From sequence record PX418213.1: a stretch of DNA of 64,000 bases; one strand, written 5' to 3'. Below the pieces are notes generated by a model. That model was not told where the DNA came from, did not search any database, and was given only the letters and a program-made list of their open reading frames with translations. Positions 1,398 to 40,396 of the stretch are shown one piece after another (the stretch's first letter is position 1; each line of letters begins with the position of its first letter). Origin of the DNA: a phage. Both the position numbers and the translations under genes were made by a program.

Positions 1398-3083
1398 TTA
1401 TGCGAAAAACTTACCGTTTTTAAAGTCAATCAAAGTGCGCTGGCCGTTCGCATAGGTAATTAAATGCGTTTGCGTCCAGCTTGACGCGCCAACGTTATAG
1501 CCCATATCTAGGGAACCAGCAACGCCCGCCGTATATACGCCGCCGTAAATGCTGGCGGTGTGAGTGTGCCCCGTGTTTAACTTGCCCAATTTCTTAAACT
1601 GCTTAGGATTGCCACGGCTGCCGTTTATGCCGTTGTGACCGTGTACGCCGCATTCAATGCCTGCAATCTTGAAAGATTGATCAGTCGTTAGGAAAATCGC
1701 GTTAAACTCGCAACCTGCGACGGTACGCAGCGCATAATCTAGCACGTTGAAAGTATCATCCTGCCTTGCAATAGCTGCATAGATAGCGGCATTCAGGCGG
1801 TGATATAATTCCGCGTTTGCTGGATCGTCTTTAATGTTAGCATTGCGATCATCAAGCCAACGGGATAGCGCCAGATCGTGGTTTGATTCCACAATGATTG
1901 TTTGACTAAAATCACGTTCCATTGATTCCAGCACGCGCCCGGTATCGATGAGATCATCCAGAACCTTATCACGTCCGGCTGCATACTGTTTCGCTAGAAA
2001 TACACCAGAAGCGCGGTTATGGTGGTTGCGCGATGTAAAATCATGCACGTCATGCACAAATTGATATTTTGGCTTGAGAATATCCACTAGCCCATAAGTA
2101 TCACCGTGCCCCCATGACGCTGCGGCGCACTCCTCATCAAGTTTTTCGGCGTGTATGTCGCCATATTGCAAGCCTAAAACATGCCCCGACGTTTCAAAGC
2201 ATCCGGTGGGAGTAGCGCAAACGTTCAGATCGTAAAACATGCCGCTTTCGTCCATCGTTTCAAGCTGGCGCACAAAAAACTCACCGTCTTCGTCGAACTC
2301 AACAATCAGCGCACCGAAATTATGCAATGCTTCCGCTTTCTGTCCTGCTTTCTGCTGAATGTAGTTTTTAAGCGTTGCCGTTCCGGTGGAATACATGCGG
2401 CGCACTACTTCACCTTTGAGAGCTGGCACGCTTTCGGCGGTGATTTTAGCGTGACCAATTGCCAGACCTTCCAGATTAAGCGCGGTTGCAGTTTCTGCGA
2501 ATCCAGACAGCGGATAGTCTGCGGTGGGCAAAACATTAATTTCAGCCATGAAAGCGAAACGGCGGTTATTTAAAAACACGTTTTTACTGCAAATATATTT
2601 ATCAAACGCGGAATCATATTTGATTCCGTCTGCGCCTTCCCCATTCTGGAATCCGTTTTTATTATAAATATACTTGCTAACCAGCAAATCAGCGCCGATA
2701 AATTGGGCGTATTGCTCCAACGCGGCTAAAAAGTTTTTATGCGGGAAAGTATTATTTTGAATCGACGTTAGAATAAAGCGTTTACCTTGTTTTACTTCCC
2801 ACTGTTCCACCGTGCTAGAAATAATTCCAGCCGCTTCGGGGCGCTCGTCGTTTTTAATGGCTTTTGCTACTTTCGCCGCTTTTGGTTTCGCTGGTTTATT
2901 TGCTTCCAGCCAATCACAAATCGCGGTGGAGTGTTTTGCAGTATCGTAAACCGCTTTCGAAATATCGTCACAAACTTCCAGCTTGGTGGCGCGCAGACGT
3001 TTACCATAGAAATTAAAGTCAGCGGCCAGCTTCAGGATAACGGTTTGCTTTTCTGCGGAAATAATCATAGTAATAAGCTCCAT
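1398..3083 (-). CDS. A1: A1-like pre-early protein, calcineurin-like metallophosphoesterase
   Basis: 561-aa ORF; phosphoesterase motifs GDIHAE, SNHD, GHTHT; size and position match T5 A1. Confidence 0.6.
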   Translation of the reverse strand: MELITMIISAEKQTVILKLAADFNFYGKRLRATKLEVCDDISKAVYDTAKHSTAICDWLEANKPAKPKAAKVAKAIKNDERPEAAGIISSTVEQWEVKQGKRFILTSIQNNTFPHKNFLAALEQYAQFIGADLLVSKYIYNKNGFQNGEGADGIKYDSAFDKYICSKNVFLNNRRFAFMAEINVLPTADYPLSGFAETATALNLEGLAIGHAKITAESVPALKGEVVRRMYSTGTATLKNYIQQKAGQKAEALHNFGALIVEFDEDGEFFVRQLETMDESGMFYDLNVCATPTGCFETSGHVLGLQYGDIHAEKLDEECAAASWGHGDTYGLVDILKPKYQFVHDVHDFTSRNHHNRASGVFLAKQYAAGRDKVLDDLIDTGRVLESMERDFSQTIIVESNHDLALSRWLDDRNANIKDDPANAELYHRLNAAIYAAIARQDDTFNVLDYALRTVAGCEFNAIFLTTDQSFKIAGIECGVHGHNGINGSRGNPKQFKKLGKLNTGHTHTASIYGGVYTAGVAGSLDMGYNVGASSWTQTHLITYANGQRTLIDFKNGKFFA

Positions 3084-27880: not shown

Positions 27881-27956
27881 TGGAGCGGCTAGAGGGAATC
27901 GAACCCTACTCAGCGAGGCTTGGAAGGCCTGCGACACAACCCATGTGCTTAACCGC
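27881..27956 (-). tRNA. tRNA-Gly (TCC), tentative
   Basis: acceptor GCGGTTA/TAGCCGC; loop CTTCCAA; one mismatch in anticodon stem. Confidence 0.5.
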
Positions 27957-27964
27957 TTATTATT

Positions 27965-28583: not shown

Positions 28584-28660
28584 TGGGGTGGCTAGTGGAA
28601 TTCGAATCCACATAGGCCTGATTCACAATCAGGATCATTAACCAATTATGATATAGCCAC
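28584..28660 (-). tRNA. tRNA-His (GTG)
   Basis: extra 5' G typical of tRNA-His; anticodon arm CTGAT-TGTGAAT-ATCAG. Confidence 0.7.
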
Positions 28661-29029
28661 AATTGAAAACTCGCAGGGTTAGCGAAACCATCCTCAATTA
28701 GCATGTTCTAGAATACTAATCAAGTTATCTCCTATTGCACGCAGCTCAAGACGAGTACGAATTTTCAATTGTGGCGGCTCTCCGAAACTCTTCTACTCTA
28801 GCCTTAGCAGCTTACTCCCGAACGCATGTCGGGAAAGTCTTACTAAGAGTATCAAATAGCACCGTTACACTTTGAGCCATAGGTGTATCAAGAAGCAGAA
28901 GGACTTGAACCTTCACGAGATAGACCATTTATCTCAGCCGCTTTATGAGGTATGTTGCGGGGAGTGGATGTTCCCCATAAACCTTTTAGGCAGCCCCGTC
29001 TACCGATTCCGGCATACTTCAAGATTTTT
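28661..29029 (-). ncRNA. non-coding stretch with isolated T-arm-like hairpin
   Basis: GAAGG-TTCAAGT-CCTTC hairpin near 28898-28914 with no matching acceptor stem; GGGGA..TCCCC hairpin at 28958-28975. Confidence 0.3.
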
Positions 29030-29203
29030 TTATAAACCAGCAGAAGCCTCATTTAGAGCATCAACAATAGCTTCACGTTGGGTCATTCCATACCCGGTGG
29101 AATCTAGGTGTGGCAAATAAGCCATCCATCCCTTATCTGTTTCATGAAGACATGCTTTAAATTTTGTACCATCCTTCATTGTTACAGTAACTGTTTTGCT
29201 CAT
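29030..29203 (-). CDS. small hypothetical protein (57 aa)
   Basis: hand-translated MSKTVTVTMKDGTKFKACLHE...; AAGGAAA RBS. Confidence 0.4.
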   Translation of the reverse strand: MSKTVTVTMKDGTKFKACLHETDKGWMAYLPHLDSTGYGMTQREAIVDALNEASAGL

Positions 29204-29223
29204 AAGATTTCCTTATAGTTAAT

Positions 29224-29313
29224 TGGCAGAAGATAATGGAGTCGAACCATCACCGTATCGCTACAGCGGGCTGGTTTTCAAGACCAGTTACGTACCACTA
29301 CGTCCTATCTTCT
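29224..29313 (-). tRNA. tRNA-Ser (TGA)
   Basis: 90 nt with long variable arm; anticodon arm CTGGT-CTTGAAA-ACCAG. Confidence 0.7.
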
Positions 29314-29326
29314 AGTATTTATTATA

Positions 29327-29674
29327 CTAATAGTCACTCGTACTAGTGAAGTTTTCTACTTTTCCACAAATTTTACAAGTCCTACGATGGTAGTAGGTAA
29401 TTTTTACTTTAGACCAGCCATCGTGATCATTACCTAGGTTTTCTGTTACTCCCCAAGTATGAGAACACTCATTTTCAATTTGCTTAGTAAGAGCGTTATA
29501 GCGAGTATAAAACTCCTCCTGAGCAATAGCAAACTCTTTCTGTAGTTTATCACGAGCAATAATAGCACGTTCCAGATATGTTAAATCTGGCATTCCAGCT
29601 TTTTCAGCAGCATCTATAATCTTATCTTCATCTAAAGATGCTAAAAACTCTAGAGCTTTATCTTTTGCTAACAT
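29327..29674 (-). CDS. hypothetical protein with C-terminal Cys pairs
   Basis: 115-aa ORF; ...CSHTWG...RRTCKICGK. Confidence 0.5.
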   Translation of the reverse strand: MLAKDKALEFLASLDEDKIIDAAEKAGMPDLTYLERAIIARDKLQKEFAIAQEEFYTRYNALTKQIENECSHTWGVTENLGNDHDGWSKVKITYYHRRTCKICGKVENFTSTSDY

Positions 29675-29693
29675 TATTATTACCTCAAGTGTT

Positions 29694-29784
29694 TGGCGGA
29701 AGAGGAGAGATTTGAACTCTCAAGCCGTTTTACCAGTCAGCCACTTTCCAAGCGGTTTTCGTCGCCAATTCGATTTGCTCTTCC
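29694..29784 (-). tRNA. tRNA-Ser (GGA), tentative
   Basis: 91 nt; acceptor GGAAGAG/CTCTTCC; T-arm GAGAG-TTCAAAT-CTCTC; long variable arm. Confidence 0.55.
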
Positions 29785-29804
29785 AATAATAAGATGATGC
29801 CTCT

Positions 29805-29893
29805 ATCACACCAGGCTGTTATGCCTCGCTGGGATTCGAACCCATTAAAACAGCTCAACCGAGATAGTAGGTTTAATTTACTCTGACCATCAA
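29805..29893 (-). ncRNA. degenerate tRNA-like element
   Basis: T-loop GGGTTCGAATCCC at 29831-29843 but no complementary acceptor strand or encoded CCA. Confidence 0.3.
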
Positions 29894-29896
29894 ATT

Positions 29897-29973
29897 TGGT
29901 GCGTGACAAGGGATTCGAACCCTCAAAACCCGACTTCTAAGGACGGTATGTATGCCAATTCCATCAATCACGC
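29897..29973 (-). tRNA. atypical tRNA, anticodon TAG (Leu codon) but class-I length
   Basis: 77 nt; acceptor GCGTGAT/GTCACGC; D-loop GAATTGG (Leu-like); loop CTTAGAA; no long variable arm. Confidence 0.45.
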
Positions 29974-29978
29974 GTATT

Positions 29979-30057
29979 TGGTGGAGAATAACGGAATCGA
30001 ACCGTTCTGATGTCCTCGGTGCAAGCGAGGTGTCCACTCCATGCAGACCCATTCCCC
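29979..30057 (-). tRNA. tRNA-Ala (TGC)
   Basis: G3:U70 pair in acceptor (GGGGAAT/ATTCTCC); anticodon arm CCTCG-CTTGCAC-CGAGG. Confidence 0.7.
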
Positions 30058-30295
30058 AAATTCTTTAGTTTACTAAGGCTATTAGCTCGGCGCAACTACA
30101 GCACCTTCGCTTCGAGCGGAAGGAACTGCGTCATCTCGCAAACCCAATACACTATTCAGTTGCCGCTGAATCTAGTGGACTAATCTAGAACTTCTCCCGA
30201 ATCGTAGGGATCGTGCTTTTTGGCAGCCAGTCCTAGGTCGAGCTAATACCTTAGTGAACTATGATGAGGATTTCTCCTCATCAATTTATATAAAT
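30058..30295 (-). ncRNA. structured leader / candidate ncRNA at 5' end of tRNA transcript
   Basis: no ORF; long-range complement AGGCTATTAGCTCG (30076-30089) with CGAGCTAATACCT (30239-30251); local hairpins. Confidence 0.35.
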
Positions 30296-30324
30296 ATTAT
30301 AACAAGAAATTAAGCATCAAGCAA
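30296..30324 (-). promoter_or_regulatory. T5-type promoter driving tRNA cluster segment
   Basis: TTGCTT, 17 bp, TATAAT; overlaps 3' end of CDS 30317-30685. Confidence 0.55.
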
Positions 30325-30685
30325 GTACATTTTTAGCGATTTCTTGCAGTTCCTTTACATCACGAACGTAAAGGTAATCAGAGCTTCCAGAGTGCATACT
30401 TTGCATAACTACACCTTCATCTGGTGCATTATCCTTCAGAGTAATTCCTAACCAGAACTCGGCAAAACTAGGTGTTATCTCACCTTGACTTGCCTTGAAT
30501 ACATCATATTCTGTAAGTTCTTGACCAGTAGATAATCCCAAATAGACAGAACTAAGATCTATCTCTTTATGAGACTCATAAAACTCCGTTAGATCTTTCT
30601 CCATATCCCAACCATGCTGTAACGCGAACTCCATTGCCACATGACTGAAATAACCTTGAATCTTGCTTGATAATTGCATTTGCAA
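30317..30685 (-). CDS. hypothetical protein
   Basis: 122-aa ORF starting with TTG. Confidence 0.5.
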   Translation of the reverse strand: MQMQLSSKIQGYFSHVAMEFALQHGWDMEKDLTEFYESHKEIDLSSVYLGLSTGQELTEYDVFKASQGEITPSFAEFWLGITLKDNAPDEGVVMQSMHSGSSDYLYVRDVKELQEIAKNVLA

Positions 30686-30704
30686 TTCCTTATTTTGAGT
30701 TAAT

Positions 30705-30778
30705 TGGTACTCGGTGATAGAATCGAACTATCGCAATCGCCGTGTAAAGACGGGGTTCTCCCATTAAACTAACCGAGC
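30705..30778 (-). tRNA. tRNA-Val (TAC), tentative
   Basis: acceptor GCTCGGT/ACCGAGT; T-arm GATAG-TTCGATT-CTATC; loop TTTACAC. Confidence 0.5.
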
Positions 30779-30782
30779 AATT

Positions 30783-30861
30783 TGGTAGATCGCCTGGGAC
30801 TCGAACCCAGAACCTTCCGATTAAAAGTCGGATGCTACTAAACCTATTGAGCTAGCGATCT
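30783..30861 (-). tRNA. tRNA-Lys (TTT)
   Basis: anticodon arm TCCGA-CTTTTAA-TCGGA; acceptor AGATCGC/GCGATCT. Confidence 0.7.
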
Positions 30862-30862
30862 A

Positions 30863-31030
30863 TTAGTAACCATTGTATACTTCTTTAATAGAGTGAATTT
30901 TCAAGTAAGGGTGATTAGTATTAAACTCTGCCATTACTTCATCCCAATTTTTACCGTAATGAGCGAGTAAGGATTTTGATGTATTCTTACCTAAACGTTT
31001 GTCACTTACTACTAATCGAAATACTTTCAT
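30863..31030 (-). CDS. small hypothetical protein (55 aa)
   Basis: hand-translated MKVFRLVVSDKRLGKN...; AGAGGA RBS. Confidence 0.4.
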   Translation of the reverse strand: MKVFRLVVSDKRLGKNTSKSLLAHYGKNWDEVMAEFNTNHPYLKIHSIKEVYNGY

Positions 31031-31050
31031 TTCGAAATCCTCTATTAAAA

Positions 31051-31128
31051 TGGAAGCGGGTGCAGGAATCGAACCTACCTCTTTCTAGCTTATGAGACTA
31101 GTGATCTCTACCAGAGATCTAACCCGCA
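31051..31128 (-). tRNA. tRNA, anticodon CAT (Met/fMet/Ile2)
   Basis: anticodon arm CTAGT-CTCATAA-GCTAG; T-arm GTAGG-TTCGATT-CCTGC; irregular acceptor end. Confidence 0.55.
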
Positions 31129-31134
31129 ATTGTT

Positions 31135-31212
31135 TGGTCTCCGTGGGAGGATTTGAACCCCCGACCCTATCGCCCCAAACGAAACGCTCTGGCCAAACTG
31201 AGCTACACGGAG
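31135..31212 (-). tRNA. tRNA-Pro (TGG)
   Basis: acceptor CTCCGTG/CACGGAG; D-arm GCTCAGTTTGGCCAGAGC; loop TTTGGGG. Confidence 0.6.
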
Positions 31213-31216
31213 AATA

Positions 31217-31375
31217 TTATTTCTTCAACCACAACAAAGATAAGCCCAACATACTAAAGCCGCTAACTAATCCGATACATTTTTCTTCTATAGTAAAAGT
31301 ATCTAGATTAAATGCTGTTATAGCTATTGGCATACACCATAATGCCATAAAAACTTGAGCTATCTTGTGTTTCAT
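31217..31375 (-). CDS. small membrane protein (52 aa)
   Basis: hand-translated MKHKIAQVFMALWCMPIAITAF...; GAAGGAAAG RBS; promoter directly upstream. Confidence 0.4.
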   Translation of the reverse strand: MKHKIAQVFMALWCMPIAITAFNLDTFTIEEKCIGLVSGFSMLGLSLLWLKK

Positions 31376-31407
31376 TTTGCTTTCCTTCTCTTCACTTTAT
31401 AAGATAT

Positions 31408-31436
31408 ATTATACAGAGAATTAAGCAGAATAGCAA
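31408..31436 (-). promoter_or_regulatory. T5-type strong sigma70 promoter
   Basis: TTGCTA, 17 bp, TATAAT. Confidence 0.6.
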
Positions 31437-31439
31437 ATG

Positions 31440-31828
31440 AATTTTTAATAAATTTACTTATTGTGTAGGCCACCTGGAGGCTACCAACCCCACGGCTGAC
31501 AAAGAAGTTTGCGAGACCTCTCTTAAATGCCAGAATAGACCCGCCGATCTATCGGAACCTACATAATAAGTAAACTTTATAGTGTCATTCTAGACAGGAC
31601 TCGAACCTGTTATCACTTGTGCGGACTTACGAGAACCATTCTTTCACTCGAATCGAACGAGCTTCTGCCCTAGCCAAGCTGGTTTCCCCATCAACCACGC
31701 TAGAATGTTTGATTGTTTTCAGTGCAAGAGTCCGAGTCTTGGACACGACCGCTTCGCAAGTACATAGGCAGCTTATCATGAGTCAGCACTTCCGAATTGC
31801 TAGCTCCGTGTTCTGCACTGAAATTTTG
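31440..31828 (-). ncRNA. structured non-coding region with tRNA-like elements
   Basis: no ORF; D-arm-like TGGTT-GATGGGGA-AACCA; two T-arm-like hairpins (CTCG-TTCGATT-CGAG and ACAGG-TTCGAGT-CCTGT); ATTCTAG/CTAGAAT complement about 120 nt apart; separate stem TTCAGTGCA/TGCACTGAA (31719-31727 with 31812-31820). Confidence 0.35.
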
Positions 31829-32176
31829 TTAATTTAATAGTAAAGTACGATCTACTTCACCATTAATTGTTCGGCACTCTTCTGGGATTGCTGGTGTAGC
31901 CTTATATTCCCACCATTCAGAACCGTCGTATTCACCACGTTCTAACCAAGTTCCGTCAGTAAACCATACATTACCATAAAGCAATTGCCCACCGAAACCC
32001 GAGTCATATTTAAAGTCTAGATTATTTAGAAAATCTTCAATATCTTTTTCTGTATAACCTACGGGCAATACCCAAACTTCTTTGTCTCCATAATAACCGA
32101 ATTCTATCTTAATACACTTAACTTCAGAATTAGTATTCTTTAGGGCAAGTAACAACTCTTCTTTAGCATTAATCAT
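31829..32176 (-). CDS. hypothetical protein
   Basis: 115-aa ORF. Confidence 0.5.
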   Translation of the reverse strand: MINAKEELLLALKNTNSEVKCIKIEFGYYGDKEVWVLPVGYTEKDIEDFLNNLDFKYDSGFGGQLLYGNVWFTDGTWLERGEYDGSEWWEYKATPAIPEECRTINGEVDRTLLLN

Positions 32177-32202
32177 AGCATATTTCTCGTGCTAGTTTAA
32201 TT

Positions 32203-32278
32203 TGGTACACCCACTAGGACTTGAACCTAGAACCCTCCGCTTAAGAGGCGGTAGCTCTAACCATTGAGCTATGGATGT
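32203..32278 (-). tRNA. tRNA, anticodon CTT (Lys-type), tentative
   Basis: acceptor ACATCCA/TGGGTGT; D-arm GCTCAATGGTTAGAGC; loop CTCTTAA. Confidence 0.5.
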
Positions 32279-32279
32279 A

Positions 32280-32438
32280 TTAAATTACTTTTTCCAGTTC
32301 ATCAGCTATGGCTTTGATTTTTTCAAAGTTTACATCACTTATAATGATACCTTCCAGTGACAGAGATATTCTAGCATTTTTCATAGCAGATTCTTTTATC
32401 TGCTCTATCTCTTCTGGAGTAAACTCCCTACGTTCCAT
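32280..32438 (-). CDS. small hypothetical protein (52 aa)
   Basis: hand-translated MERREFTPEEIEQIKESAMKNARISL...; AAGGTAGG RBS. Confidence 0.4.
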   Translation of the reverse strand: MERREFTPEEIEQIKESAMKNARISLSLEGIIISDVNFEKIKAIADELEKVI

Positions 32439-32455
32439 AGCTAACCTACCTTATT

Positions 32456-34715: not shown

Positions 34716-34792
34716 TGGTAGGGGTGGTGGGATTCGAACCCACAAAACCTGAATTTTAAGTCCAGTACCTATGCCAATTCGATTACACCCCC
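34716..34792 (-). tRNA. atypical tRNA, anticodon TAA (Leu codon) but class-I length
   Basis: 77 nt; acceptor GGGGGTG/CACCCCT; D-loop GAATTGG; anticodon arm CTGGA-CTTAAAA-TTCAG; no long variable arm. Confidence 0.5.
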
Positions 34793-35296: not shown

Positions 35297-35374
35297 TGGT
35301 GGCTCCCCGAGGATTCGAACCTACGTACCTTCCGGTTATGAGCCGGGTGCTCATACCATATGAGCTTGAGAACC
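35297..35374 (-). tRNA. tRNA, anticodon CAT (Met/Ile2)
   Basis: acceptor GGTTCTC/GGGAGCC with G-U pairs; loop CTCATAA; T-stem has mismatches. Confidence 0.5.
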
Positions 35375-39599: not shown

Positions 39600-40396
39600 T
39601 CTAAGTATTTTTAAGAATTCTCATAAAAACTCTTAAAAATACAGACGATACCGGGAGAGTCATAAGTCTCACTCATTAAGTATTTCAAGACAAAATACGG
39701 TAACGTCTATTATTTTCCAGTTTAAGTCAGGGTGACTTAGTGGTTATGTCCTGCGGTATATTGAGGACTCGGTTAGGCTTGGGGTCATGACTTCCCACCT
39801 TTTGCTGCTACTCAACAGGAGTTATCGCGAATTACCTGTGCTATTGTGCACCATTAGTGACATCTCTCATGTCAGCATTTCCCACTTTGTGGATAGCTTG
39901 AAAAACTACTCCGATATGGAGAAAGAACTTCACTATCCTAGAATACCTTCTAAAGTTCTTCTTTAGCCTGGACATAGTTAAATCGTAATAAAACTATTCA
40001 GCAGACTGGTTGGTTAGTCTGGAACCAACTACCGCGTGGTTTAGGCAGTGCGCAACTAACCTCGGAAGCTTTTACGTTAAAAGCACCAGTTATCCAGTTC
40101 TTACCGACCGTAGGATTCGAACCTACATCTTCCACCAGTTACGACTTGATAATACCAATTATACTAGGACGGCAGTGTTACTACATAAGTGATTTCCACA
40201 CCCCACTATTTATAAATTAGAGAAGAGTTTAGGGGAGAGGTTTCAGACGCCTCATTTTACACGTTCTAGCCACTAACCGGGATTGCCGCCCCCTGTGTAC
40301 TAGTTTTACAACTAACCCACCGACTCTATTCAATGCGCTCCGCTTGGGATTCTGCACTCAGCGTAATCGGCTCGCTGTTCCCTAATTTATGAATAT
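39600..40396 (-). ncRNA. about 800-nt non-coding transcribed region with degenerate tRNA-like element
   Basis: no ORF of 60 aa or more; lies between promoter 40397-40425 and gene 39084-39584; T-loop GGTTCGAATCC at 40113-40123 with imperfect acceptor. Confidence 0.3.

What the first reader, a model, noticed from the sequence alone, without database searches (positions are those of the whole stretch)
28661..29029. Non-coding interval with an orphan T-arm hairpin
A perfect T-arm-like hairpin (GAAGG-TTCAAGT-CCTTC) has no partner acceptor stem within tRNA distance. It may be a tRNA remnant or part of a small RNA.
Basis: seen in the sequence. Interest (0 to 1): 0.4.

Follow-up and report, generated by a model that had tools for sequence, protein, structure and literature searches.

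The report
T5 phage tRNA-like RNA1 gene
The "orphan" hairpin is the T-arm of RNA1, a known but functionally uncharacterised tRNA-Leu-like RNA of T5-family phages, and the rest of the "non-coding interval" holds two more annotated stable RNA genes, so the finding is real but not new.

Summary
The window is the tRNA-gene region of a T5-like phage (Tequintavirus; 98% identical to phage phiP4). The hairpin GAAGG-TTCAAGT-CCTTC is real, on the minus strand at 28898-28914. It is not orphan. Its acceptor partner lies 118 nt upstream, because the anticodon loop is replaced by a 48-nt interrupted hairpin and there is a 19-nt variable arm.

The whole interval is accounted for by three minus-strand RNA genes already annotated in the T5 (AY692264) and BF23 (AJ604530) GenBank records:
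- RNA1, "tRNA-like RNA with unknown functions", 28879-29023
- RNAI, 28772-28878
- RNAIII, 28662-28767

Across 40 distinct RNA1 homologues, 96.6% of pair cells are paired. Fifteen of 37 pairs show compensatory changes, against 5 or fewer in slid controls.

RNA1 has the tRNA-Leu D-loop and T-loop. It has no conserved anticodon, no encoded CCA, and scores below the Rfam tRNA threshold (25.2 vs 29 bits). Its 10-nt apical loop AACAUCCACU is nearly invariant, including in Klebsiella phages.

RNA1 is best read as a tRNA-Leu paralogue that no longer decodes and has taken on another role, probably as a tRNA mimic. Its actual function is unknown. Verdict: already known, modest interest.

The parts
28898..28914 (-). 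T-arm of RNA1, the hairpin named in the finding: GAAGG / UUCAAGU / CCUUC
   Evidence: Read directly from the sequence. All 5 pairs are kept in 40 of 40 homologues. The T-loop is identical to that of E. coli tRNA-Leu.
28879..29023 (-). RNA1: a tRNA-like RNA, homologue of T5 and BF23 'rna1'. It is 145 nt here and 144 nt in T5.
   Evidence: Coordinates were transferred from the misc_RNA features of AJ604530 and AY692264 using alignment A1. The covariance model R1 scores it at 182 bits.
29015..29020 (-). RNA1 acceptor stem, 5' strand (GAAGUA). It pairs with 28892-28897 (UGCUUC). U29021 opposite U28891 forms a U.U mismatch at position 1:72.
   Evidence: Four of the 6 pairs show changes on both sides, and 98.3% of cells are paired.
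28996..29012 (-). RNA1 D-arm, CCGG-AAUCGGUAGA-CGG, with the tRNA-Leu-type D-loop
   Evidence: The D-loop GGAAUYGGUAGAC is identical to that of E. coli leuZ and leuV. The stem is paired in 100% of cells.
28937..28994 (-). RNA1 anticodon stem (28990-28994 with 28937-28941), enclosing the 48-nt element that replaces the anticodon loop (28942-28989). That element contains stem 2 (28981-28984 with 28948-28951) and the apical stem (28973-28977 with 28958-28962).
   Evidence: Changes on both sides occur in 3 of 5, 2 of 4 and 3 of 5 pairs of the three helices. The minimum-free-energy fold predicts the same arm.
28963..28972 (-). Apical 10-nt loop AACAUCCACU, nearly invariant
   Evidence: It is identical in 39 of 40 distinct homologues, including those from Klebsiella phages. 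The one exception is an A-to-G change in L039.
28917..28935 (-). RNA1 long variable arm (6-bp stem, 7-nt loop), a class II tRNA feature
   Evidence: All cells are paired, and pair 100:112 switches between A-U, U-A and C-G.
28772..28878 (-). RNAI: a 107-nt stable RNA with a terminal stem (5' GGCUC, 3' GAGCC) followed by G-CCA
   Evidence: Annotated as rnaI in T5, BF23 and DT57C. The terminal stem is compensated in L033, which has GGGCC/GGCUC.
28662..28767 (-). RNAIII: a 106-nt stable RNA closed by a terminal stem of about 10-12 bp that abuts the 5' end of tRNA-His
   Evidence: Annotated as rnaIII in T5, BF23 and DT57C. It is 98-100% identical in almost all Tequintavirus loci. The fold has a z-score of -2.85.
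28584..28660 (-). tRNA-His(GUG), the downstream neighbour in the same transcription direction
   Evidence: ARAGORN and the Rfam tRNA model at 59.9 bits.
29321..29350 (-). Sigma-70-like promoter (TTCACT, 18-nt spacer, TATAAT) upstream of tRNA-Ser(UGA). It is the candidate start of the transcript that carries tRNA-Ser, the small ORF, RNA1, RNAI, RNAIII and tRNA-His.
   Evidence: A consensus scan gave 10 of 12 matches. This is a pattern match only. No terminator-like site lies between it and tRNA-His apart from the RNA stems themselves.

Best explanation
The hairpin is the T-arm of RNA1, a roughly 145-nt tRNA-like RNA gene of T5-family phages. RNA1 is followed head-to-tail by the stable-RNA genes RNAI and RNAIII and then by tRNA-His.

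Shown here:
- RNA1 folds as a class II cloverleaf: a 6-bp acceptor stem plus a U.U mismatch, a tRNA-Leu-type D-arm, a 5-bp anticodon stem, a long variable arm and a tRNA-Leu-type T-arm.
- The 7-nt anticodon loop is replaced by a 48-nt interrupted hairpin capped by a nearly invariant decaloop, AACAUCCACU.
- Selection maintains this fold.
- RNA1 has no conserved anticodon and no encoded CCA.

Inferred:
- RNA1 arose from a phage tRNA-Leu(UAA) gene by a roughly 40-nt hairpin insertion at position 31/32. T5 still carries CUUAAAA at the right place.
- It is transcribed with the tRNA array and cut out by the tRNA-processing machinery (RNase P at the 5' ends of RNA1 and RNAI, then 3' trimming).
- It does not decode. 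It acts in trans as a tRNA(Leu)-shaped mimic: the elbow and core engage a tRNA-binding host or phage factor, while the extended arm presents the invariant loop. I put this mimic or decoy role at about 0.3.
- It is an accessory function, not an essential one.
For: Identity. The 369-nt interval is 91% identical to BF23 AJ604530, where rnaIII, rnaI and rna1 ('tRNA-like RNA with unknown functions') are annotated back to back on the same strand. T5 AY692264 has the same three features. Alignment A1 transfers their boundaries to the window.

Structure. In 40 distinct homologues, 96.6% of cells are paired. Fifteen of 37 pairs change on both sides (128 cells), against 1-5 pairs for slid controls, and 0 of 500 shuffles reach the observed value. 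G.U pairs (U16.G136, U40.G93, U55.G74) make the fold specific to the minus strand.

tRNA-Leu ancestry.
- The D-loop GGAAUYGGUAGAC and the T-loop GGUUCAAGUCC match E. coli leuZ and leuV.
- After RNA1 itself, the best hits of the RNA1 covariance model in the window are the phage tRNA-Leu(UAA) at 31.5 bits and tRNA-Leu(UAG) at 25.7 bits.
- Its best hit in T4 is tRNA-Leu at 31.5 bits.
- Removing 40 nt from the T5 version in silico yields a tRNA that ARAGORN calls tRNA-Leu(taa).

Not a decoder.
- When allowed introns, ARAGORN assigns orthologues the anticodons Phe(aaa), Leu(taa), Phe(aaa) and Val(aac), with different intron positions.
- All 24 tRNAs that ARAGORN called in the window encode CCA, and RNA1 does not.

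Module behaviour.
- RNA1 sits 3-9 nt after either a tRNA-Ser CCA or the stop codon of a small ORF.
- It is present in Klebsiella Sugarlandvirus phages without RNAI or RNAIII.
- It is absent from DT57C.

Dispensable. The viable T5 deletion mutant T5-123 (deletion 29191-32442) removes all three RNAs (PMC11464382; coordinates).
Against: - No expression, end-mapping or binding data were available to me. The BF23 record calls RNAI and RNAIII 'stable RNA' but calls RNA1 only 'tRNA-like RNA', so stable accumulation of RNA1 is not documented in what I could read.
- No partner was identified for the invariant loop. Complementarity to E. coli rRNA and to the phage transcripts is at chance level.
- The acceptor helix continues beyond the U.U mismatches, by 2-3 bp in coliphage versions and about 14 bp in Klebsiella versions. 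That is not what a free NCCA end looks like, and it makes the processing sites uncertain.
- Fragments of the T5-123 deletion other than the tRNA-Lys fragment did not rescue infection of PARIS+ cells, so RNA1 is not the PARIS suppressor.
Confidence: 0.85

Rival explanations
1. RNA1 is a functional tRNA gene interrupted by a short intron, as annotated in phage JLBYU40 (tRNA-Leu(taa), 134 nt). The intron would be removed to give a decoding tRNA.
For: With its intron option, ARAGORN calls every orthologue a tRNA of 131-135 nt containing a 40-41-nt intron. The T5 type carries a perfect CUUAAAA Leu(UAA) anticodon loop next to the 3' strand of the stem. OK272480 carries this annotation.
Against: - The inferred anticodon and intron position differ between orthologues: Phe aaa with intron at 37, Leu taa at 33, Phe aaa at 36, Val aac at 39.
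- The nucleotides that would form the loop vary in sequence and length: CUCAUAAA, CUUAAAA, CGAAAAC.
- The 'intron' is the most conserved part, and its helices covary.
- Forty-one nt is far too short for a self-splicing group I intron, and no intron family matches in Rfam.
- No CCA is encoded, unlike all 24 tRNAs of the window.
- The phage already has a tRNA-Leu(UAA) at 34716-34792.
Confidence: 0.04
2. RNA1 is a decaying tRNA pseudogene or remnant with no function of its own.
For: It scores below the Rfam tRNA threshold, lacks an anticodon loop and CCA, and is absent from some relatives such as DT57C.
Against: - Fifteen pairs show compensatory changes and 96.6% of cells are paired across three genera.
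- The decaloop is invariant in 39 of 40 homologues.
- RNA1 is retained in Klebsiella phages at only about 80% identity, with the structure intact.
A neutral remnant would accumulate helix-breaking changes.
Confidence: 0.03
3. RNA1 acts only in cis. It would be a tRNA-shaped processing signal or punctuation mark that recruits RNase P to separate the upstream small-ORF mRNA from the downstream stable RNAs, with no trans-acting role.
For: RNA1 sits between a small ORF or a tRNA and RNAI with spacers of 3-13 nt. RNAI starts exactly where RNA1 ends, and RNAI carries a tRNA-like GCCA end. tRNA-like punctuation is an established principle in mitochondria and in E. coli tRNA operons.
Against: - A processing signal needs only the acceptor and T-arm. 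Here the extended arm covaries and its loop is invariant.
- RNA1 occurs directly after tRNA-Ser, where the neighbouring tRNA already supplies processing sites.
- It also occurs in Klebsiella phages in a different context.
Confidence: 0.1
4. The interval encodes small proteins. Several GenBank records annotate 'hypothetical protein' CDSs here.
For: Automatic annotations exist in, for example, MT233524 and PQ569713. ORFs of 38-54 aa can be drawn in the window.
Against: - The ORFs are not conserved. The 54-aa ORF of the window is 35 aa in T5 because of a 1-nt indel.
- One ORF overlaps tRNA-His.
- Substitutions are pairwise-compensatory rather than codon-patterned.
Confidence: 0.02

Closest known systems
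Bacteriophage T5 / BF23 'rna1' (misc_RNA in AY692264 and AJ604530: 'tRNA-like RNA with unknown functions'), with neighbours rnaI and rnaIII
   Same: The window element is an orthologue. It sits in the same position, strand and order (small ORF or tRNA-Ser, then RNA1, RNAI, RNAIII, tRNA-His). RNA1 is 85% identical, RNAI 91% and RNAIII 100%.
   Different: The window version is 1 nt longer. It has different, compensated base pairs in the acceptor, anticodon and apical stems. It has lost T5's CUUAAAA Leu(UAA) loop remnant and has CUCAUAAA instead.
Bacteriophage T4 species 1 RNA (rnaC, 139 nt) and species 2 RNA (rnaD), stable RNAs at the end of the T4 tRNA cluster
   Same: These are stable RNAs of unknown function encoded head-to-tail with phage tRNA genes. 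T4 rnaC also folds with a canonical T-arm near its 3' end (CCGGG-UUCGAAU-CCCGG), a long hairpin resembling a variable arm, and a long central arm where the anticodon arm would be.
   Different: There is no detectable homology: the RNA1 model scores 5.6 bits on rnaC. rnaC has no tRNA-type D-arm and no AACAUCCACU loop. The resemblance is in architecture and context only.
Class II tRNA-Leu (E. coli leuZ and leuV; the phage's own tRNA-Leu(UAA))
   Same: D-loop, T-loop, long variable arm, 5-bp anticodon stem and overall cloverleaf.
   Different: RNA1 has no 7-nt anticodon loop and no conserved anticodon. Position 1:72 is U.U, the discriminator is U in coliphage versions rather than A73, and no CCA is encoded.
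tmRNA and other tRNA mimics with a replaced anticodon arm (tmRNA tRNA-like domain; bacterial Y-RNA-like YrlA)
   Same: The concept is shared: a tRNA elbow and acceptor module joined to a non-decoding extension in place of the anticodon arm.
   Different: ARAGORN finds no tmRNA, and no Rfam family other than sub-threshold tRNA matches. RNA1 has no tag ORF, no pseudoknots and no G3:U70. Unlike tmRNA, it keeps a full D-arm.
E. coli 3'ETS-leuZ, a regulatory RNA released from a tRNA-operon spacer
   Same: It is a precedent for a functional non-tRNA RNA excised from a tRNA precursor by the tRNA-processing enzymes. It is annotated next to leuZ.
   Different: 3'ETS-leuZ is an unstructured sponge for small RNAs, not a tRNA-shaped RNA. 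There is no sequence relationship.

Membership tests
T5-family RNA1 (GenBank misc_RNA rna1) | Sequence homology to T5 and BF23 rna1 over its full length | tested here: met
   85% identity over 146 nt to T5 and BF23. R1 model score 182 bits.
T5-family RNA1 (GenBank misc_RNA rna1) | Syntenic position: minus strand, immediately 5' of rnaI, rnaIII and tRNA-His | tested here: met
   Alignment A1 against T5, BF23 and JLBYU40. Annotations.
T5-family RNA1 (GenBank misc_RNA rna1) | Expressed as a discrete RNA in infected cells | not testable with these tools
   No RNA data are available. The GenBank notes give no experimental qualifier for rna1.
Canonical tRNA (Rfam RF00005) | Score at or above the gathering threshold of the tRNA covariance model | tested here: not met
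   25.2 bits against 29. Absent from the gathering-level scan.
Canonical tRNA (Rfam RF00005) | Cloverleaf with acceptor, D, anticodon and T stems and a GG / UUCRANY elbow | tested here: met
   All four stems are present and covary. The D-loop and T-loop match tRNA-Leu. The acceptor stem has 6 bp plus a U.U mismatch at 1:72.
Canonical tRNA (Rfam RF00005) | 7-nt anticodon loop with U33 and an anticodon conserved among orthologues | tested here: not met
   The stem closes a 48-nt element. The inferred anticodons are aaa, taa, aaa and aac in orthologues.
Canonical tRNA (Rfam RF00005) | 3' CCA, which every ARAGORN-called tRNA of this phage encodes | tested here: not met
   24 of 24 tRNAs end in CCA. 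RNA1 continues UUGAUAC after the acceptor strand.
Canonical tRNA (Rfam RF00005) | Aminoacylation (here by LeuRS) | not testable with these tools
   This needs a biochemical assay. The discriminator is U in coliphage versions and A in Klebsiella versions.
tRNA gene with a group I intron (for example cyanobacterial tRNA-Leu(UAA)) | Intron of at least about 200 nt with the group I catalytic core, inserted in the anticodon loop at 34/35 | tested here: not met
   The insertion is 40-41 nt and lies at about 31/32. There is no Intron_gpI hit at E up to 10.
tmRNA | tRNA-like domain plus tag reading frame and pseudoknots, with alanine identity G3:U70 | tested here: not met
   ARAGORN finds no tmRNA and there is no Rfam tmRNA hit. 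Pair 3:70 is A-U or G-C.
T4 species 1 RNA (rnaC) | Sequence or structure homology to T4 rnaC | tested here: not met
   The R1 model scores 5.6 bits on rnaC. Only the general architecture is similar.

The most novel reading that the evidence does not exclude
RNA1 is a dedicated counter-defence tRNA mimic. It would be a tRNA(Leu)-shaped decoy whose elongated, nuclease-proof 'anticodon arm' and invariant decaloop trap or mis-direct a host factor. Candidates are a tRNA-targeting immunity nuclease of the OLD, PARIS or Septu TOPRIM kind, which recognise anticodon stem-loops, or another tRNA-binding factor such as LeuRS or the L/F-transferase. T4 rnaC would be a convergent example of the same strategy. 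Nothing here excludes this reading. The element is dispensable in the laboratory, conserved across hosts, sits in a tRNA array already shown to counter PARIS, retron Eco7 and OLD, and cannot decode.
Probability: 0.2. Interest if true: 0.65.

Novelty: already known. Interest (0 to 1): 0.3.

Why it matters
RNA1, RNAI and RNAIII are annotated in T5 and BF23, with their function recorded as unknown. The array of phage tRNA genes around them has recently been shown to be a counter-defence arsenal against PARIS, retron Eco7 and OLD (PMC11464382; 10.1101/2023.03.15.532788; 10.64898/2026.07.10.737580).

The comparative analysis here adds three things:
- RNA1 is under strong selection for its structure.
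- It descends from tRNA-Leu(UAA) but has given up decoding.
- It displays a nearly invariant 10-nt loop across phages of E. coli, Salmonella and Klebsiella.

This turns a neglected annotation into a testable candidate tRNA mimic. For genome annotation it also matters in practice. Most of the roughly 500 related genomes leave this locus blank, or call it a spurious ORF, or call it an intron-containing tRNA with an arbitrary anticodon.

Tried and rejected
1. tmRNA or two-piece tmRNA. I suspected this from the interval length (369 nt) and a GGGGCUG string. ARAGORN and Rfam find none, and the string lies in the D-stem/anticodon-stem junction.
2. An Rfam family for RNA1, RNAI or RNAIII. None matches at E up to 10 apart from the sub-threshold tRNA hit. 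The Plastid-ycf2 hits are the antisense strand of tRNAs.
3. BLAST of an in-silico 'spliced' RNA1 against 5,426 E. coli genomes. There was no match, so I compared RNA1 with leuZ and leuV directly instead.
4. A base-pairing target for the invariant loop. The exact complement occurs only at the locus itself. The best rRNA match is 8 nt including one G.U (23S nt 23-30), and the matches in phage transcripts are at chance level.
5. Copies in bacterial genomes. The two pattern hits (Bacteroides and Gemmatimonadales MAGs) are chance matches in unrelated sequence.
6. Literature on T5 RNA1, RNAI and RNAIII in the held library. Four searches found nothing specific. The original papers appear not to be held there.
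7. Metagenome scan with the variable-arm/T-arm pattern. Of 56 loci, only about 10 were true T5-like homologues and the rest were unrelated.
8. Homology to T4 rnaC. Rejected.

Full report
**What the window is**

The window is the tRNA-gene region of a T5-like phage. A 1-kb query around the finding matches 507 phage records. These are almost all Escherichia, Salmonella or Klebsiella phages of the Demerecviridae, and the best match is Escherichia phage phiP4 at 98.3%. ARAGORN finds 24 tRNA genes, all on the minus strand. The finding's interval, 28661-29029, lies between tRNA-His(GUG) at 28584-28660(-) and a small ORF at 29030-29203(-).

**Checking the observation**

The hairpin is real but lies on the minus strand: GAAGG, UUCAAGU, CCUUC at 28914-28898. 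The T-loop motif GGTTCRANNCC occurs 25 times in the window, always on the minus strand, against 0.54 expected. It is therefore a genuine tRNA-type T-arm and not a chance hairpin.

It is not orphan. At a permissive threshold the Rfam tRNA model aligns end to end over 28890-29021(-). That alignment contains a 45-nt insertion in the anticodon loop and a long variable arm, and it scores 25.2 bits, below the gathering score of 29. The acceptor partner, GAAGUA at 29020-29015, lies 118 nt upstream of the T-arm. This is why a reader scanning at normal tRNA distance missed it.

**What is already annotated there**

The interval is 91% identical to the BF23 tRNA-region record AJ604530. That record annotates three minus-strand misc_RNAs back to back:
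- rnaIII, "stable RNA with unknown functions"
- rnaI, with the same note
- rna1, "tRNA-like RNA with unknown functions"

. The T5 record AY692264 carries the same three features. DT57C has rnaIII and rnaI but no rna1.

Transferring the boundaries through alignment A1 gives these window coordinates:
- RNA1: 28879-29023
- RNAI: 28772-28878
- a 4-nt spacer
- RNAIII: 28662-28767, abutting tRNA-His

Most other records leave the locus blank, annotate short ORFs, or in one case (JLBYU40) call RNA1 a 134-nt tRNA-Leu(taa).

**Structure of RNA1**

I collected 40 distinct homologues from GenBank phages, IMG/VR and metagenomes. I scored them against a cloverleaf with an extended anticodon arm.
- 96.6% of cells form standard pairs.
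- 15 of 37 pairs show changes on both sides (128 cells).
- Controls with the 3' partner slid by 1-3 columns give 1-5 such pairs and 40-50% pairing.
- No shuffle out of 500 reaches the observed values.

Compensation is seen in the acceptor stem (A-U to G-C and G-C to A-U), the anticodon stem (G-C to A-U and G-C to U-A), both helices of the extension, and the variable arm. Conserved G.U pairs make the fold specific to the minus-strand transcript. Single-sequence folding predicts the same structure.

Layout in window coordinates:

| Element | Coordinates |
|---|---|
| Acceptor stem | 29015-29020 with 28892-28897 (U.U at 1:72) |
| D-arm | 28996-29012 |
| Anticodon stem | 28990-28994 with 28937-28941 |
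| 48-nt element replacing the anticodon loop | 28942-28989 |
| Apical loop AACAUCCACU | 28963-28972 |
| Variable arm | 28917-28935 |
| T-arm | 28898-28914 |

The 48-nt element contains two further helices and A-rich internal loops. The apical loop is identical in 39 of 40 homologues.

**Ancestry of RNA1**

- The D-loop GGAAUYGGUAGAC and the T-loop GGUUCAAGUCC are those of E. coli tRNA-Leu (leuZ, leuV).
- A covariance model built from the RNA1 alignment scores the window's RNA1 at 182 bits. Its next-best hits are the phage's own tRNA-Leu(UAA) at 31.5 bits and tRNA-Leu(UAG) at 25.7 bits.
- In T4 its best hits are tRNA-Leu and tRNA-Ser.
- In T5-type sequences, the seven nucleotides 5' of the 3' strand of the anticodon stem read CUUAAAA, a perfect Leu(UAA) anticodon loop. 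Deleting the preceding 40 nt in silico makes ARAGORN call a tRNA-Leu(taa).

I infer that RNA1 arose from a tRNA-Leu(UAA) gene by insertion of a hairpin at about position 31/32.

**Why RNA1 is not a decoding tRNA**

- When introns are allowed, ARAGORN calls every orthologue an intron-containing tRNA, but with inconsistent results: Phe(aaa) in the window, Leu(taa) in T5 and JLBYU40, Phe(aaa) in Klebsiella phages and Val(aac) in L033. The intron positions differ too.
- The would-be loop nucleotides vary in sequence and length, while the "intron" is the most conserved part and its helices covary.
- All 24 tRNAs that ARAGORN called in the window encode CCA. RNA1 does not, whereas RNAI ends in GCCA.
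- Forty-one nt cannot be a group I intron, and no intron family matches.
- The ORFs that can be drawn here are not conserved.

**Context and distribution**

A sigma-70-like promoter lies upstream of tRNA-Ser(UGA), at 29350-29321(-). No terminator-like site separates it from tRNA-His. The order is therefore tRNA-Ser, small ORF, RNA1, RNAI, RNAIII, tRNA-His, which looks like one precursor cut up by tRNA-processing enzymes. This is an inference.

RNA1 behaves as an independent module.
- In several phages it directly follows the CCA of tRNA-Ser with a 3-nt spacer and without the small ORF.
- In Klebsiella Sugarlandvirus phages it is present at about 80% identity, downstream of a tRNA Ile-Met-Val cluster, without RNAI or RNAIII.
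- In DT57C it is absent.
- Pattern scans of bacterial genomes gave only chance hits.

The T5 deletion mutant T5-123 (deletion 29191-32442) removes all three RNAs by the AY692264 coordinates and is viable. Fragments of that deletion other than the one carrying tRNA-Lys did not rescue infection of PARIS+ cells (PMC11464382).

**Most likely mechanism**

What is shown is a structurally constrained, tRNA-Leu-shaped RNA that cannot decode and that presents an invariant 10-nt loop on an arm roughly 14 bp longer than a normal anticodon arm.

What is inferred is that RNA1 is excised by RNase P and 3' trimming and acts in trans as a tRNA mimic, with the loop as the specific contact. Because E. coli LeuRS does not read the anticodon (established knowledge), a tRNA-Leu body is a natural scaffold for a mimic that tolerates an altered anticodon arm.

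Host immunity nucleases that recognise anticodon stem-loops are countered by T5-family tRNAs. Examples are PARIS AriB, OLD and retron Eco7 (PMC11464382; 10.64898/2026.07.10.737580; 10.1101/2023.03.15.532788). A decoy or anti-defence role is therefore plausible but untested. I put it at about 0.2-0.3.

I found no base-pairing target for the loop above chance.

**Comparison with known systems**

- By homology and synteny, the element is a member of T5/BF23 RNA1.
- It fails three defining tests for a canonical tRNA: Rfam score, anticodon loop and CCA.
- It fails the tests for tmRNA and for group I intron tRNAs.
- Its closest analogue outside the family is T4 species 1 RNA (rnaC). That RNA also sits in a phage tRNA cluster and folds with a canonical T-arm, a long hairpin resembling a variable arm and a long central arm. 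It shows no homology to RNA1 (5.6 bits).

**Verdict**

The feature is already annotated in T5 and BF23. The new elements here are the covariation support, the tRNA-Leu(UAA) ancestry, the invariant loop, and the extension to Klebsiella phages. Interest is modest, at 0.3.

Noticed in passing
window 28662-28767 (-); loci L010, L021, L024, L027, L033: RNAIII is 98-100% identical in nearly all Tequintavirus loci, even where RNA1 and RNAI have drifted to 84-91%. In Epseptimavirus-like loci the same slot, between the CCA of RNAI and tRNA-His, holds unrelated inserts of about 34 to 190 nt. These inserts are always closed by the same terminal stem (CAAUUGAAA...UUUCAAUUG), which is compensated in L033 and L024. 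It looks like a cassette site with a conserved closing helix.
   Followed up: partly
window 28772-28878 (-); alignment A5: RNAI keeps its 5' GGCUC / 3' GAGCC-G-CCA ends and the motif GUAACGGUGC in all types. Its middle part exists in two unrelated versions (T5 type and Epseptimavirus type). L033 compensates the terminal stem (GGGCC/GGCUC).
   Followed up: partly
L011 about 560-700 and L021 about 1920-2100 (minus strand): Some Epseptimavirus genomes carry an extra structured module of about 130 nt inserted between RNA1 and RNAI.
   Followed up: no
window 29897-29973 (-) and 34716-34792 (-): The phage's own tRNA-Leu(UAG) and tRNA-Leu(UAA) are 77 nt long with a 5-nt variable loop. They are class-I-shaped leucine tRNAs, whereas RNA1 keeps the class II long variable arm.
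   Followed up: no
window 29694-29784 (-): This is a class II tRNA-Ser(GGA): GGAAGAG...CUUGGAAAG...CUCUUCC-G-CCA. It corresponds to BF23 tRNAS2. ARAGORN and the Rfam gathering-level scan both missed it, and only the RNA1 model touched it (17 bits).
   Followed up: partly
window 29826-29846 (-), 31590-31612 (-), 27884-27957 (-): There are further T-loop motifs outside the called tRNAs. One is a UGGG-UUCGAAU-CCCA hairpin in the gap between tRNA-Leu(UAG) and tRNA-Ser(GGA). A second is ACAGG-UUCGAGU-CCUGU near 31600. The third lies in a weak tRNA-like hit (30.5 bits to the tRNA-Sec model) where BF23 has tRNA-Gly(UCC). These are possible additional tRNA-like RNAs or remnants.
   Followed up: no
window 35300-35374 (-) and 40102-40173 (-): Two tRNAs score above the Rfam gathering score (40.3 and 35.5 bits) but ARAGORN did not report them.
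   Followed up: no
L002 985-1132 (Salmonella phage vB_Sen_I1): This RNA1 is chimeric. Its 5' acceptor strand is the T5 type (GGAAUA) and its 3' strand is the window type (UGCUUC), giving an A.C mismatch. That suggests a recombination breakpoint inside the gene.
   Followed up: no
L039 986-1132 (121,750-bp IMG/VR contig with T5-type RNA1, probably T5): This locus has the only variant of the apical loop among the 40 homologues: GAACAUCCGCUC, an A-to-G change. The T5 st0 record AY692264 has the consensus sequence. It could be a strain difference or a sequencing error.
   Followed up: no
L101 1909-2047 (T4 rnaC): T4 species 1 RNA folds with a canonical T-arm, a 10-bp hairpin resembling a variable arm and a long central arm (z-score -4.6). 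This tRNA-like layout is analogous to T5 RNA1, with no sequence homology.
   Followed up: partly
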